Positions 26,297 through 46,849 of a stretch of 64,000 nt of DNA are shown here, piece by piece. The notes under the pieces were generated by a model. The model worked only from the letters and a program-made list of their open reading frames with translations. It did no database searches and had not been told where the DNA came from. Each line of letters opens with the position of its first letter. Positions within the stretch are counted from its first letter, which is position 1. Both the position numbers and the translations under genes were made by a program. The stretch spans positions 34,658,001-34,722,000 of the forward strand of contig OZ024742.1 of the NCBI GenBank assembly GCA_964016885.1. The letters run 5' to 3'. Source of the stretch: Eledone cirrhosa. Taxonomy: Eukaryota.

Positions 26297-27215
26297 AACG
26301 AAGGAAATGTGGTAAAGAACCAGGTGGACCATAACGCACCAAAGTACTCAATACTTAGGGTAGTAGAGTGGGTAATAGGAACGAGTAAGACCCCGACGGC
26401 TGAGCTCAAGCCGCTTCGACGGCTAATTCTGGACTAAATGGAAATTTATCCTGGTATTTGAATAGCCGAGCTTCTCAAGGGGTAATTCCATATATGGTCA
26501 AAGTGTTTGTCACAGGGATTGGTCAAAGTTAGTAGTTGAGACATAATAATTCTATGATGACAAATTAGTGGGGGGAAGAGGTAGCTAAACCTGCCAGTAG
26601 GAGAAAGAGGGAGATGGGGTGGAGTAGACCCATTCATGCGTTGGTAGTGCCGGCTACAGCTGGACGTGAGGTCAAAGAAGATACTAGGGAGTGGGAGGGG
26701 GAGGAAGTCGAAACAGTAGGTAGAACAATGAAGGGTAAAAATATAAAGAAAATACTGAGAGTGTTAAAAAGCGAATAAATGTAAAAAAAAAAAAATAAAC
26801 AATTTCTGGTTACTACGACCTTTTTAACACTCTCAATATTTTCTTTATATTTTTACCCTTCATTGTTCTACCTACTGTTTCGACTTCCTCCCCCTCCTCC
26901 TCCCTAGTATCTTCTTTGACCTCACGCCCAGCTGTAACCAGGCACTACCAACGCATGAATGGGTCTACTCCACCCCCTCTCCCTCTTTCTCCTACTGGCA
27001 GGTTTAGCTACCCCTTTCCCCCACTAATTTGCCATCATAGAATTATTATGTCTCAACTACTAACTTTGACCAATCCCTGTGACAAACACTTTGACCATAT
27101 ATGGAATTACCCTTTGAGAAGCTCGGCTATTCAAATACCAGGATAAATTTTCATTTAGTCCAGAATTAGCCGTCGAAACGGCTTGAGCTCAGCCGTCGGG
27201 GTCTTACTCGTTCCT
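26297..27215 (-). mobile_element. Longest family A fold-back element (tail 26297-26376, arms ~26377-26772 and 26820-27215)
   Basis: About 395-bp inverted arms (mirror ORFs 26446-26637 and 26916-27146), a family A tail and (TA)n flanks. Confidence 0.85.
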
Positions 27216-29854
27216 ATATATATATATATATAAGCTTGTCTTTATTGACTTATATCGAGACAGACAAATTGTATTCACTTTAATTAGTTTATTTCATTAA
27301 TAGCTAACTTTGTCTGTTACAATGCAAACACGTTTTGTGTTTATCATATATTTTAATGTATTTAACTGCTCGGAAATGCCCCTTTCTTGGAGCTGATTTA
27401 TTGTAAACGACTGAGAGTTTAATCTCAAATTATAATATAGTATATATATATATATATATATATATATATATATATATATATATATCCACCAGTCTTCTTC
27501 TGTAGGATTTCTACCACCGGCTCAACCCCGATTCAATTCGCCGTGACCAACCTCTTGACTTTTCCCAAAACTTTTTCTCTTTCAGTCTCCGATTTTTTAT
27601 TTATTTTTTTGTTAATGATTTTTTTTGTTTATGATTTTTTTGTTTATGATTTTTCTGTTTATATTTTACTGCCCCCCCCCCCCCCCCCCACTCTCAAGCG
27701 TGAACCTAATACTAACACTTTGTATTGCAATCTTCGTTATTGTTTTTGTTTTCTGTTTTAACTTTTATATATATATATATAAACGGACATTAGACAATAC
27801 ACCCTTAAATACATACATAGATATATATGTGTCTGTGCATAGAACAATAAAAAACACAGGCGTAGGTAGAACAATCTAAGTCTGACATCTGTTTTTTTTA
27901 TTGTTCTATGCGCAAACACATAGATGTAAATGACTCTGTAACCTGAACGAATTTTCTTCGAGGATACCCTAAGCGGTGATCACCTACCATAAAAACTATT
28001 GGTCACACTTCGCTGCGACCTTCCTTCCAAGGACACATTGAATTTTAACAACTTTATCAGCCTCACCACAATTACGATATATATATATATATATATATAT
28101 ATATATATATATATATATATATATATATGATTGATTTCTACGCTCCAATTTTGTTATAGTCCAGAGCTCAGCCGTCGGGGTTCTGACTCTTTCCCTATAT
28201 ATGTATATGAGGTGTGTGTTGCTGCAGATGATGTGAAAGAGAGTGAGAGAAATATGTATGTATATGTGTGTACAGATATTTGTGTGATGGCAATTAAGAA
28301 AAGTTAAGCTTGCCTTTTGGAGTTGATAAAACCAGTCAAAATACAGCGTCAATATAATCATCTTACCCACTTTGATAATGGACCATATGACCGCAGTCTA
28401 ATAGTTAAAAATAGTGAAAGGATAGAAGTTAAAGATATTTGTCTTATCAATTAACGATTTCTTACCTGCTGACTAGTTTAATTTTGTATTTTGTAATATA
28501 GTTCCTTGAAATAGCTCTGTAGGGCTGCCGTGGGAGGGGGATTGCGGGAAGTTGGGGGACGCCTGACCGGAAGCAGGGAAACGGGGGTGATCGTGAAAAG
28601 CCCTCTCTTAGCTGAGGGGGATATAGAGCTACCGTGGGAGGAGGATTACCGGAAGCTGGGGGACGCCTGACCAAAAGCAGGTGGACGGGGGCGACTCGAA
28701 ACATCAGGCCGTGAACAGCCCTCTCTTAGCTGTTGGCCCTGCAAGGTGACGGGTGTGCGAAGACAGACGCTAGTGGAAGTACCCCACGTGGAAGGTTGGA
28801 ACCAGCGATAGAGAGACGCAAAGTAAGTCCGAATGCCTCCGGCTACAAGCTCATAGTAGCAGCTTCATAAACTGATGAGAAAGTGTGCTAATCGTTTGTC
28901 CATTGTAACAGTGGAGTTATGGAGTTTACATATGGATTAAGTACATTACATAAGTTTAATATAATTAACAAACATCTAAATAAAGAAAGAGAATCTTTAT
29001 TATATTTCAAAATAAACTAACCTCAAGCACAATGAGAAATCTTTATTTCTACAGAGATTTCTGTACATTTTTCAATCAAGAATTTTGCAGATGTTCCATT
29101 GTAGTTCATATGACACGCACACACACATACGCACATGTATGTATTTTTGTATGTATATGTATATATAGACACACACACACATATATATTTATATATATAT
29201 ATATATATATATATATATATATATATATATATATATATATATATATATATATATATAATATATATAATATATATATATATATATATATATATATATATAT
29301 TTATATATATATATATATATATATATATATATATATATATATATACATATATATTTATATATATATATATATATATATATATATATATATATATATATAT
29401 ATATATATATATACATATATATATATATTTATATATATATATATATATATATACATATATATATATATATATATATATATATACATATATATATATATAT
29501 ATATATATATATACATATATATATATATATATATATATATATATATATATATATATATATATATATAAATATATATATATATAAATATATATATATATAT
29601 ATATACATATATATATATATATATATATATATATATATATATATATATATATATATATATATATATATATATATATATATATACATGCATTAGAACATGA
29701 TGTAGTGTTGATATGAATATCCCATATGGGTTCCTCTTCCCCATATATATATATATATGTGTGTGTGTGTGTGTGTGTGTGTGTGTGTGTGTGTGTGTGT
29801 GTGTGTGTGTGTGTGTGTGTGTGTGTATGTGTGCGTGCATGTGTGTGGAGTGTC

Positions 29855-30430
29855 CAAGGCAAATTGCAGAGCAGTGGACACGTCCTATATGAGGAATCTT
29901 AATCCGATAAAATGGTTCAGGTCTAAGGAGACCAAGGAAGAGGCCGTGAATATCTGACGCCTCTTCCACATTTAAAAAATCATCTCGGTTATCTTGAATG
30001 TCAGTGTGGGTTGAAACAGTCTTGTTCCGTTTTGTAAAATGTATTTCAGAAACCCTAACAATGGGAGTGTCAATAGACTTTATCTGACGTCAATTTTAAT
30101 ACCACCACCTGGACATTGTTGTTCTTTAGCAAAGTACTCTCAGCTGCAAGCATTAAGGGTCATGTCTATTGTTTAAGGATTCCTTTCTCCCTACATCTTA
30201 CCATTGCGCTCTTTCTTTAAGAAAAACTCATTCATCTGTCGCCCAATATAACACCACGACATGGCTTGTGGGTACCTTAAACAGAATCCACTCTTCTACC
30301 AGCATTCAGGACAGGTTTCCGGTTTGGTGATATCTGCCTCTTTTTAACAAGATTGGTGCTCTGAAAATAATCACGGTCACTGCTGTTTCTTCCTTGACAA
30401 ATTTGTGTAAACAAAAAAGCCAACATCAAA
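29855..30430 (-). pseudogene. Possible highly degenerate Tc1/mariner transposase
   Basis: The minus strand resembles SPDLN (TCTCCT-AGACCTGAAC) and GGIK motifs across frameshifts. Confidence 0.25.
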
Positions 30431-44677: not shown

Positions 44678-45445
44678 ACATACATACATACATACATACA
44701 TACATTCATGCATACATACATACATACATACATACATACATACATACATACATACATACATACATTCATGCATACATACATACATACATACATACATACA
44801 TACATACACACACATAGACACATACATACATACATACATACATACATACATACATACATACATACATACATTCATGCATACATACATTCATGCATACATT
44901 CATACATACATACATTCATGCATACATACATACATACATACATACAAACATACATACATACATTCATGCATACATACATACATACATACATACATACATA
45001 CATACATTCATGCATACATACATACATACATACATACATACATACATTCATGCATACATACATACATACATACATACATACATTCATGCATACATACATA
45101 CATACATACATACATACATACATACATTCATGCATACATACATACATACATACATACATACATACATACATACATGCATACATACATACATACATACATT
45201 CATGCATACATACATACATACATACATACATACATACATGCATACATACATACATACATACATACATACATACATGCATACATACATACATACATACATA
45301 CATACATGCATACATACATACATACATACATACATACATACATACATACATACATTCATGCATATCTACATACATACATACATACATACATACATACATT
45401 CATGCATATCTACATACATACATACATACATACATACATACATAT
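44678..45445. repeat. (CATA)n tetranucleotide array with recurrent TTCATG variants
   Basis: Seen directly in the sequence. Confidence 0.95.
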
Positions 45446-46849
45446 ATGTAGCATACATGTATATATTATATGCACAATGTCTGTGTGTCTGTGTGTGTGT
45501 TTCAAACATTTAGTGTATATATAGTGTGTGTATATATATATATATATATAGGTAAAAGTTTGACCCCGACGGCAGAGCTCAAGCCGTTTGGAGGGCATTT
45601 TTGAAATAGAAATAGCCGTCGACGCGGCTTGAGCGCTGCCGTCGGGGTCCACCTGGTTCCTTACCACACCTACTTCGTTATATATATATATATATATATA
45701 TATATGGGTGTGTGTGAGTGCGAGTGTGTATGCATGAATGTATATATATGACACTCACACAGATATACACACACACACACACACACAAATATACATATAT
45801 ATATATATATATATTTATATATATATATATATATATATATCTATGTATATATATGTATATGTATATATATATATGTATATATATGTATATGTATATGTAT
45901 ATATATAGAGAGAGAGAGCGCGAGAGAGGGAGAGAGAGCGCGAGAGAGAGTGAGCTAGAGAGAGTGAGAGAGACACGATAGAGATAGATAGATAGATAGA
46001 TTGAGAGAGAGAGAGAGAGAGAGAGAGAGAGAGAGAGAGAGAGAGAGAGAGAGAGAGAGAGTCATGTATCGGGATAAGCCTATTTATATATAAGTATATA
46101 TACATTTATATAAGTTCTGTATACCTGTTTGCGTGAGTGCGTAAATATATATACTCTGCCCGGTAAGTATGTTTATATGTAAGTGTCTGTATGTGTATTT
46201 GTAAATATGTATATATATGTATGTCTGTGTATCTGTACGTGTGTTTTATTGCATATGTGTAAATTATATACGTGTTTATGAATATACGAGTGTCTGTGTG
46301 CGCAATTATCCCGTCCCGTGAGGTTTTTATTACTGGAATGAAGCATTATCGAAATCTTCAGCAGCAGCATCATCGATATTATCAACATTATATTGGCAGT
46401 ATCAGTAGAGGGTCGGACGCCATGCTATCCAACACAGTTACGTCCCTTTACGGTATGAGTTCAAATCCCGCCAAGGTTAACTTTGCCTTTCATCCTTTCG
46501 GCGTCGATAAATAAAGTACCAGTAATGCACTGGAGTAATTGCTGGCCTCGTGCCCAAAGTAGAAACAATTATCAACATTATCAGCAACAGCATCATCATC
46601 ATCATCATCATCATCAGCAGCAGCAGCAGCAGCAGCAGCAGCAGCAGCAACAGCAGCAGCATCATTCCTTTTGTAATATTACATATTGATATTGTGGCCA
46701 TCAACATTATCAACAGTTAACATTACCGACACTCGAAATTATCAACACCGACAATAATTGTAGAAGGAACAACACACAACAACAACAACAATAGCCAGTG
46801 CCACTAACACCCACAATATCAACAAGGGTTAACACGAGATCCTCTACAG

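What the first reader, a model, noticed from the sequence alone, without database searches (positions are those of the whole stretch)
26297..45680. Hairpins appear to be made anew at each insertion: fixed outer start, variable fold-back point
Seen: in family A the outer bases differ between copies but always match within a copy (GGAGTAAGTAAG/CTTACTTACTCC; GGAAAAGAGTCAGG/CCTGACTCTTTTCC; GGAAAATGTTTAACC/GGTTAAACATTTTCC). Arm length ranges from ~45 to ~395 bp in A and from ~115 bp to ~2.4 kb in B, yet the inverted arm starts at the body/tail boundary. Inference: two cDNA syntheses from opposite target strands, or snap-back second-strand synthesis, with an internal initiation site.
Basis: partly seen in the sequence, partly recalled or inferred. 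Interest (0 to 1): 0.75.

Follow-up and report, generated by a model that had tools for sequence, protein, structure and literature searches.

The report
Head-to-head Penelope retroelement insertions with tails
The hairpins are real head-to-head pairs of Penelope-like jumping-gene ends set in TA repeats, a known landing pattern, and their uneven arms suggest each pair is likely built from two separate DNA copies started at two fixed points beside a small conserved RNA stem-loop.

Summary
The hairpins are real: 22 were catalogued in the window. Family B encodes the C-terminal RT and GIY-YIG part of a Hydra-clade Penelope-like element (PLE) and carries hammerhead ribozymes. Family A has no ORF, but one arm holds a U3-A8 hammerhead and its tail shares a motif with Hydra elements.

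Confirmed: fixed outer start, and arms group by locus or subfamily, never by side.

Corrected: the outer bases mark subfamilies and mismatch in copy A7. Family-A fold-backs are not freely variable: 5 of 8 lie 52-60 nt from the boundary, and two share one junction.

Additions: the tailless arm is often the longer (B1 by 932 bp, B0, A0, L067), which favours two independent cDNAs over tail-first snap-back. Tails are 80-90 nt and begin with an apparently undescribed stem-loop (16 of 27 related loci; 0.07 in shuffles). Moderate interest.

The parts
26298..27214 (-). A1: family-A hairpin; tail 26298-26377, tail-bearing arm 26378-26771, spacer 26772-26819 (owner unknown), tailless arm 26820-27214
   Evidence: 12 of 394 mismatches
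27109..27202 (+). Type I hammerhead motif with U3-A8 core variant in A1's tailless arm; predicted cut after 27197, 17 nt before the body/tail boundary. The mirror copy in the other arm has a GAAA-to-GAAG change
   Evidence: U3-A8 variant described in PMC4209133
28157..28196 (+). A2: single tailless family-A arm with an internal deletion; its 5' end is at the same hot spot
31380..31553 (+). A3: hairpin, 34-nt tailless arm, 24-nt spacer owned by the tail-bearing arm, 82-nt tail
31630..31820 (+). A4: hairpin, 55-nt arms joined by a 2-nt insert, 80-nt tail, private outer bases mirrored in both arms
37616..37695 (-). A5: tail-only family-A copy between (TA)n runs
37953..38147 (-). A6: hairpin, 1-nt overlap at the junction; junction identical to A8 of another subfamily
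39443..39645 (+). A7: hairpin whose outer bases do not match between arms
42257..42450 (+). A8: hairpin of a third subfamily
45551..45679 (+). A9: decayed hairpin with a deletion into the tail
34..167 (+). A0: 42-nt tailless arm joined to a ~13-nt tail-bearing arm plus tail (tailless arm longer)
31748..31775 (+). Conserved tail stem-loop RCTC-N(10-18)-T[TCA]GAGY-RC, shown for A4; starts 8 nt after the tailless boundary
9036..9408 (+). B0: family-B hairpin, 106-nt arms; spacer mostly continues the tailless arm; hammerhead cores at 9132(-) and 9210(+); ~100-nt tail
43900..44078 (-). B3: single tailless family-B arm with hammerhead core at 43999(-)
47351..51998 (+). B1: 1793-nt arms; the 932-nt spacer (49149-50080) belongs to the tailless arm and holds broken RT-thumb/GIY-YIG coding sequence on the minus strand; junction has 5-nt microhomology and a ~24-nt templated duplication; ~90-nt tail
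53001..58016 (+). B2: 2395-nt arms (0.4% mismatch, 4 indels), ~90-nt tail, nested in the internal (TA)n of a family-D hairpin
55858..56526 (+). Hydra-clade PLE ORF fragment: RT thumb, CxCX5C linker, GIY-YIG endonuclease; mirrored at 54495-55430 on the minus strand
55397..55487 (.). B2 centre: the minus (tailless) arm keeps ~7 codons of native RT sequence absent from the other arm; the plus strand holds an upstream RT motif-4 piece joined across an internal deletion
   Evidence: compared by eye with the Hydra alignment
52041..58117 (.). D2: family-D hairpin/tandem whose two arms share a private (TA)n expansion absent from other D copies; interrupted by B2

Best explanation
These are insertions of Penelope-like retroelements (family B Hydra-clade by its protein, family A likely so by ribozyme and tail motif) made of two 3'-end copies joined head to head in (TA)n, and each hairpin is likely built by two separate target-primed cDNA syntheses, one from each nicked target strand, that would start at two fixed internal RNA sites and be joined at their truncated ends. 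SHOWN: Hydra-type ORF and hammerheads in B; two discrete 3' ends 80-90 nt apart in families A, B, C, G and H; arms born together; either arm can be the longer; junctions with 0-5 nt overlap or 2-nt inserts. INFERRED by analogy with the in vitro work on the lizard element PAc: a protein dimer nicks both strands, one RT starts at the tail end and the other at the body/tail boundary. INFERRED here: the conserved stem-loop at the start of the tail is the protein-binding signal that positions both starts, and host end-joining seals the centre. INFERRED, weaker: most family-A copies come from short non-autonomous ~190-nt hairpin-plus-tail templates whose apex lies in loop II of the hammerhead, so the junction position can be inherited while both arms are re-copied from the sense arm. 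That would explain why A6 and A8 share a junction yet mirror about 10 subfamily differences.
For: Identity: the B ORF hits four proteins at E 1e-33 to 6e-42. One of them (P0002) carries RWK and DKT, all four carry YRDD and CxCX5C, and B itself has CxCX5C, CxxC..E and N..CxH, the Hydra diagnostics of PMC8557442. Hammerheads: 11 structural hits vs 0-3 in 10 shuffles (9 strong vs 0-1); 6 are in B arms and 1 in A1. Arms born together: B0 and B2 arms are sisters at 97-98% support, and B1 arms differ by 1 of 181 nt vs 25-29 from B2. A4 and A8 arms are sisters at 80-82%, and the subfamily split has 100% support with both arm sides in each clade. D2 mirrors a private TA expansion in both arms. No homogenisation: arm-arm 15/505 vs tail-tail 6/240, and 11/90 vs 32/240. 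Against tail-first snap-back: the tailless arm is longer in B1 (+932 nt of ORF), B0, A0, C63167 (tailless arm joined inside the tail) and metagenome locus L067 (~1.76 kb ORF on the tailless arm, 62-nt tail on the 231-nt inverted arm). The tail side is longer in A3, A7, C19482 and D1. Arms are about equal in A4, A6, A8, A9 and G. Both arms own private sequence in B2. Published biochemistry: PAc cleaves and extends both strands, starts internally at two sites that bound the tail with no strand difference, and is predicted to dimerise (PMC11167929). Tail motif: 21 of 27 hammerhead-bearing Hydra loci have the GAG half (2.0 in shuffles, 7 on the opposite strand). 16 of 27 have the full stem-loop (0.07 in shuffles, 0 on the opposite strand), and the window has 15 hits vs 1.0.
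Against: Uneven arms can also come from later deletions, to which palindromes are prone. A0, C63167 and the B2 centre could each be explained that way, and B arms do carry indels of up to 40 nt. Spacer ownership is unknown for A1, H and K. C34710 lacks a TA flank and may be a chimera, so it was not counted. The sample is small: one window and one clear outside locus (L067) among 78; 20 of 78 had some inverted repeat, 12 were inspected, and most are unrelated. The family-A tree rests on 60 columns with 8 of 12 inner branches unresolved; A1/A6 and A3/A7 arms are not resolved as sisters. Family A has no ORF, so its clade is inferred. Its hammerhead is intact on one arm only, and the minimum-energy fold does not adopt it. 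The full stem-loop pattern was defined after seeing these loci, several loci are near-duplicates, and the stem is mismatched in B0, B1 and G. PAc is a different clade with a 30-40 nt tail. RAD reads are cut at an AATT site at 26425-26428, so they could not map fold-back points.
Confidence: 0.6

Rival explanations
1. Snap-back or self-priming: one cDNA folds back on itself and copies its own first part, and the endonuclease resolves the intermediate, leaving a tail on one side (close to the models in PMC3846280 and PMC8557442).
For: Near-zero loops in A4, A6, A8 and G; a native palindrome at the F apex; tail-side-longer copies A3, A7, C19482, D1. Arms are nearly identical in young copies (B2 0.4%, G 0 of 77).
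Against: A tail-first cDNA cannot give a longer tailless arm (B1, B0, A0, C63167, L067) or native sequence found only on the tailless arm (B2 centre) without extra deletions. One-nucleotide loops cannot prime by base pairing (established chemistry). A version in which the tail is set by endonuclease resolution on either side is not excluded.
Confidence: 0.2
2. Hairpin masters copied whole: a few already-palindromic mini-elements are transcribed, and a single cDNA copies tail, arm, apex and inverted arm, so hairpins are inherited rather than made per insertion (mainly family A).
For: Fold-back hot spot in 5 of 8 A hairpins; identical junction in A6 and A8; about 90% of contig depth lost between 26414 and 26441; outer bases are subfamily markers.
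Against: A6 and A8 differ at about 10 of 58 positions that are mirrored in both arms, which whole copying would not preserve. Within one subfamily the junctions differ (A1, A4, A6; A0, A3, A7). It does not fit family B, where all three junctions differ.
Confidence: 0.12
3. Old hairpins whose arms are kept alike by arm-to-arm gene conversion after insertion.
For: Perfect or near-perfect arms in G and A4.
Against: Arm-arm divergence equals between-copy tail divergence in both subfamilies tested; arms accumulate unshared indels.
Confidence: 0.04
4. MITE-like DNA transposons with terminal inverted repeats, or assembly chimeras.
For: Inverted arms in TA context.
Against: One-sided tails, tail-only and single-arm copies, most variable bases at the outer ends, an RT/GIY-YIG ORF and hammerheads. 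Both TA junction types occur in independent raw reads, and arms differ by 0.4-15%.
Confidence: 0.02

Closest known systems
Hydra-clade Penelope-like elements (Craig et al. 2021, PMC8557442; includes Hydra-1_Obim from Octopus bimaculoides)
   Same: C-terminal GIY-YIG, CxCX5C linker, canonical hammerhead in the 3' part, (TA)n targets. The paper's general EN+ PLE scheme has an adjacent inverted 5'-truncated copy and a tail at either end.
   Different: Family B is a distinct family from Hydra-1_Obim (by-eye comparison with the supplement alignment). Tails here are 80-90 nt rather than 30-40. The tail stem-loop is not mentioned in the main text ('hairpin' 0 hits, 'stem' only for ribozyme descriptors), although it is visible in the Hydra-2_Amil and Hydra-1_Ajap consensus sequences. 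The paper ascribes the tail to endonuclease resolution.
PAc (Poseidon) of Anolis carolinensis in vitro (Frangieh et al. 2024, PMC11167929)
   Same: Two internal RT start sites bounding the tail, both strands nicked and extended, AT-rich targets, uncleaved hammerhead RNA used as template, start sites in a stem-loop, predicted dimer.
   Different: Different clade and shorter tail. The paper does not link its result to inverted copies: its only use of 'inverted' refers to a blocking nucleotide.
Adineta vaga Penelope insertions (Arkhipova et al. 2013, PMC3846280)
   Same: Head-to-head inverted pLTR, one-sided tail, palindromes at the junction, microhomology junctions.
   Different: Proposes self-priming on an antisense template; those elements have discernible target-site duplications.
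L1 twin priming (recalled from memory: Ostertag and Kazazian 2001; not read here)
   Same: Two cDNAs primed from opposite target strands and joined by microhomology.
   Different: In L1 the second primer anneals at variable internal sites and inverts the 5' part without duplicating the 3' end. Here the second start is fixed and the 3' end is duplicated.

Membership tests
EN+ Penelope-like element, Hydra clade (family B) | RT followed by C-terminal GIY-YIG endonuclease in one ORF | tested here: met
   tblastn and alignment to P0001-P0004; Pfam gave no hit for B or for these homologues
EN+ Penelope-like element, Hydra clade (family B) | CxCX5C linker; CxxC and CxH around the conserved E and N | tested here: met
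   against the definition
EN+ Penelope-like element, Hydra clade (family B) | RWK and DKT motifs in the N-terminal RT region | tested here: inconclusive
   B copies are truncated before this region; homologue P0002 has both and L067 has DKT
EN+ Penelope-like element, Hydra clade (family B) | Canonical hammerhead near the 3' end, sense strand | tested here: met
   cores at 9210, 43999, 47447, 51812, 57829, plus a mutated one at 9132
EN+ Penelope-like element, Hydra clade (family B) | Placement inside the Hydra clade in an RT tree with reference families | not tested
   reference proteins were seen only as text in a paper supplement
EN+ Penelope-like element (families A and B) | Adjacent inverted 5'-truncated copy, 3' ends outward | tested here: met
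   orientation from ORF and hammerheads
EN+ Penelope-like element (families A and B) | One-sided tail, published length 30-40 bp | tested here: inconclusive
   tail present but 80-90 nt in A, B1, B2, C, G and 62 nt in L067
EN+ Penelope-like element (families A and B) | Insertion into (TA)n | tested here: met
   flanks; B2 sits in a TA array that pre-existed in both D2 arms
EN+ Penelope-like element (families A and B) | Target-site duplication | not testable with these tools
   hidden by (TA)n targets
EN+ Penelope-like element (family A) | RT/GIY-YIG ORF | tested here: inconclusive
   longest copy is 0.5 kb with no coding hit; no longer copy found
EN+ Penelope-like element (family A) | Hammerhead motif | tested here: met
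   U3-A8 variant at 27114(+). Reads show C3 in about 43% of depth at 26478 and a stem-II-improving change at 26470; the partner position 8 was not among the rows shown
MITE / TIR DNA transposon | Conserved terminal inverted repeats at both ends of the element | tested here: not met
   one-sided tail, outer bases most variable, tail-only and single-arm copies
Animal non-LTR retrozyme | Tandem short monomers each with a hammerhead | tested here: not met
   A and B are not tandem; families C (214-nt unit) and D do form tandems; paper seen as a search listing only

The most novel reading that the evidence does not exclude
Penelope-like hairpins arise by twin target-primed reverse transcription from a dimeric RNP, and Hydra-clade elements carry an undescribed conserved RNA stem-loop (RCTC..GAGY) that fixes both internal start sites and lets many ORF-less families, including a very abundant ~190-nt hairpin mini-element, hitch-hike on the same enzyme.
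Probability: 0.4. Interest if true: 0.62.

Novelty: new member of a known kind. Interest (0 to 1): 0.4.

Why it matters
How Penelope-like elements make their inverted structures is named as an open question in PMC8557442, and the 2024 in vitro paper did not address it. Which arm is longer in young copies is a simple genomic test that separates twin cDNA synthesis from snap-back, and this genome appears rich in such copies (about 23,000 family-A reads per RAD run). A conserved cis stem-loop next to the start sites would give a handle for reconstituting a Hydra-clade RT, a relative of telomerase, and for finding ORF-less PLE derivatives that repeat libraries may misfile as MITEs. The basic anatomy is not new.

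Tried and rejected
No whole genome was held, so the genome-wide map could not be made. Rfam gave only sub-threshold miRNA and low-complexity matches among the 150 of 335 rows shown. Pfam found nothing for the B ORFs or their homologues. An exact 33-nt family-A tail pattern found nothing in metagenome contigs, and four 13-15-nt family-A words were absent from the Craig 2021 supplement as held, so no full-length A element was identified.

My first scan for canonical hammerhead cores missed family A, and I briefly considered it Naiad-like; the U3-A8 scan changed that. I considered that (TA)n flanks are synthesised at insertion, because B2 seemed to have a target duplication outside its TA runs. 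I rejected this since the TA array is mirrored in the other D2 arm and so pre-existed.

The strand-switch joints at 26425 in RAD reads coincide with an AATT site where most molecules end and were not used. The 19 of 21 stem figure is biased, because 15 rows (12 metagenome loci and 3 window copies) were picked for having the stem; I rely instead. My junction-overlap function misfired for A4 and A6 and for A4; the A4 junction was read from the printed sequence.

Literature searches that found no statement of a twin-cDNA model for PLE inversions or of the tail stem-loop. Subscription papers such as Arkhipova 2006 are not in the library, so absence is not proven.

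
Full report
SETTING. The window is AT-rich animal DNA dense in (TA)n, (CA)n and SINE-like repeats. That it is cephalopod is my inference, from recalled repeat style and from the octopus Hydra family in PMC8557442; it was not tested. No whole genome was available. Self-comparison shows many local inverted repeats, and I catalogued 22 hairpins from about ten families.

OBSERVATION. Family A has ten copies: eight hairpins (A0, A1, A3, A4, A6, A7, A8, A9), one single tailless arm (A2) and one tail-only copy (A5). The three quoted outer-base pairs are exact, and the inverted arm begins at the body/tail boundary. 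Reads of a related or the same species confirm two fixed TA junctions, at the tail end (26301/26308) and at the boundary (26375), with thousands of reads each in two RAD runs. Family B has three hairpins with 106, 1793 and 2395 paired nt, plus one single arm. Three corrections apply. A7's outer bases do not match between arms. Outer bases mostly mark three or four subfamilies. Five of eight A hairpins fold 52-60 nt from the boundary, with A6 and A8 sharing an identical junction; contig depth drops about tenfold across that interval.

WHAT THE ELEMENTS ARE. B2 encodes a 222-aa fragment with four homologues at E 1e-33 to 6e-42. The homologues and B carry the Hydra-clade diagnostics listed in PMC8557442 section 11. 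Pfam does not recognise them. B arms carry type I hammerheads on the ORF strand about 50 nt before the boundary, and the structural scan gave 11 hits against 0-3 in shuffles. So 3' ends point outward and the centre joins two 5'-truncated ends. Family A has no ORF and no canonical core, but A1 holds a complete type I hammerhead with a U3-A8 core, a variant reported for Schistosoma PLEs (PMC4209133, passages). Reads show the canonical C3 in about 43% of depth and a stem-II-improving variant, though the partner position was not displayed. The fold-back hot spot lies in loop II of this motif, 58 nt before the boundary.

WERE THE ARMS MADE TOGETHER? In B, arms of one locus differ by 1 of 164, 1 of 181 and 7 of 108 nt, against 16-40 differences between loci; B0 and B2 pairs have 97-98% support. 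In A, the deepest split (100%) separates subfamilies with both arm sides on each branch. A4 and A8 arms are sisters at 80-82%; A1/A6 and A3/A7 are unresolved (60 columns). D2 mirrors a private TA expansion in both arms. Pooled arm-arm divergence equals tail-tail divergence within subfamilies: 15/505 vs 6/240, and 11/90 vs 32/240. This argues against later homogenisation.

TWO cDNAs OR SNAP-BACK? A cDNA that starts at the tail and folds back must leave the tail-bearing arm at least as long as the other. The opposite is seen in B1, whose 932-nt spacer continues the tailless arm and matches the B2 ORF at 78.5%. It is also seen in B0, in A0, in C63167 where a tailless arm joins inside the tail, and in metagenome locus L067 from another host. 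In B2 the tailless arm keeps about seven codons of native RT sequence that the tail arm lacks, while the tail side carries an upstream RT motif-4 piece across a deletion (by-eye comparison with the alignment). The tail side is longer in A3, A7, C19482 and D1; arms are about equal in A4, A6, A8, A9 and G; ownership is unknown in A1, H and K. Junctions show a 5-nt overlap plus a ~24-nt templated duplication (B1), 4 nt (D1), 2 nt (C19482, D2), 1 nt (A6, A8) or a 2-nt insert (A4): short and mixed, as expected of end-joining. Later deletions could mimic some cases, so this favours but does not prove two independent cDNAs.

A CONSERVED TAIL SIGNAL. Tails are 80-90 nt in A, B1, B2, C and G. A motif TTGAGYRCT, first noticed in window tails, occurs after the hammerhead in 21 of 27 metagenome Hydra loci that had at least 120 nt downstream (shuffle mean 2.0, opposite strand 7). 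Those 27 came from 32 hammerhead-bearing loci among 49 whose match reached the ORF C-terminus, out of 78 fetched. Its GAGY pairs with an upstream RCTC: the full stem-loop is in 16 of 27 (shuffle 0.07, opposite strand 0) and 15 times in the window (shuffle 1.0). It reads GCTC/GAGC in the outside loci and ACTC/GAGT in A, B2 and H. It starts 7-9 nt after the tailless end in A, B, C, G and H (boundaries approximate within TA-like bases). At least three misses (L055, L063, L067) end in a TA or CA-type repeat before the motif position, as tailless ends should. The motif is visible in published consensus sequences of Hydra-2_Amil and, twice, at the 5' end of Hydra-1_Ajap. Caveats: the stem was defined post hoc, the loci are related, and the stem is mismatched in B0, B1 and G.

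COMPARISON WITH WHAT IS KNOWN. PMC8557442 (passages, section 11, supplement searches) describes the inverted 5'-truncated copy, the 30-40 bp tail at either end, (TA)n targets and an octopus Hydra family, and calls the formation of these structures unresolved. PMC3846280 (passages) describes head-to-head palindromes and proposes self-priming. PMC11167929 (parts 1-2 of 4: main text and start of methods) shows internal initiation at two sites, extension of both strands and a predicted dimer, without linking this to inversions; its supplements were not read. Five earlier notes of this scan on other genomes reached the same PLE reading; they are not independent evidence. Searches found no twin-cDNA model for PLE inversions and no mention of the tail stem-loop, within the library's limits.

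VERDICT. What this window adds is a discriminating genomic test leaning to twin synthesis, longer tails with a candidate cis stem-loop, and an abundant family-A mini-element with a fold-back hot spot. Interest 0.4.

Noticed in passing
window 5155-5850 (minus strand): 5'-truncated Hydra-type element: endonuclease C-terminal fragment at 5663-5848 (E 2e-8) and a hammerhead-like motif with the same U3-A8 core near 5240; ends at TA.
   Followed up: partly
window 23930-24830, 52041-58117, 63421-63730: Family D: short unit forming partial tandems, with a minimal hammerhead; hairpins whose direct arm starts about 10 nt after the predicted cut; D2 has both outer ends at the same boundary; no RCTC/GAGY motif seen.
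   Followed up: partly
window 8194-8470, 19482-20380, 25269-25360, 32471-32610, 34710-34855, 63167-63305: Family C: 214-nt tandem unit with a hammerhead-like motif whose core has A at position 4, two stem-loop motifs per unit, and hairpin, tail-only and tailless-plus-partial-tail copies.
   Followed up: partly
window 11919-12158: Family G hairpin with perfect 77-nt arms, a 1-nt loop and a 90-nt tail; as in family A the fold-back lies just upstream of the hammerhead GAAA half, removing the CUGAUGA half.
   Followed up: partly
window 38192-38400 (minus), 21300-21528 and 21914-22142, 39253-39370, 43345-43568, 62637-63134: Further families (M, L, H, K) carrying the tail motif; M also has a hammerhead core at 38359; L forms a 229-nt direct repeat.
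   Followed up: partly
L005, L006, L021, L023, L025 and window family C: Two tandem copies of the tail stem-loop about 65 nt apart, as in the published Hydra-1_Ajap 5' end; might give three start sites.
   Followed up: no
window 43775-43830: A short inverted duplication of the target flank itself (SINE end plus TA) next to B3.
   Followed up: no
window 26375-26377 and equivalents in all A copies: The tailless end always overlaps an invariant TAT that matches the (TA)n target, although the 13 bases inside it vary between subfamilies; possible short primer-template pairing at the internal start.
   Followed up: no
window 58625-61240: Strongly GT-skewed repetitive block with long stop-free frames; not examined.
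   Followed up: no
window 14456-14622, 23326-23650, 34360-34623, 35632-36260, 46377-46581: Abundant SINE-like family, in places in tandem (207-nt and 128-nt units).
   Followed up: no
window 22674-22760 (plus): Another U3-A8 type I hammerhead hit with a strong stem II, outside the families studied.
   Followed up: no
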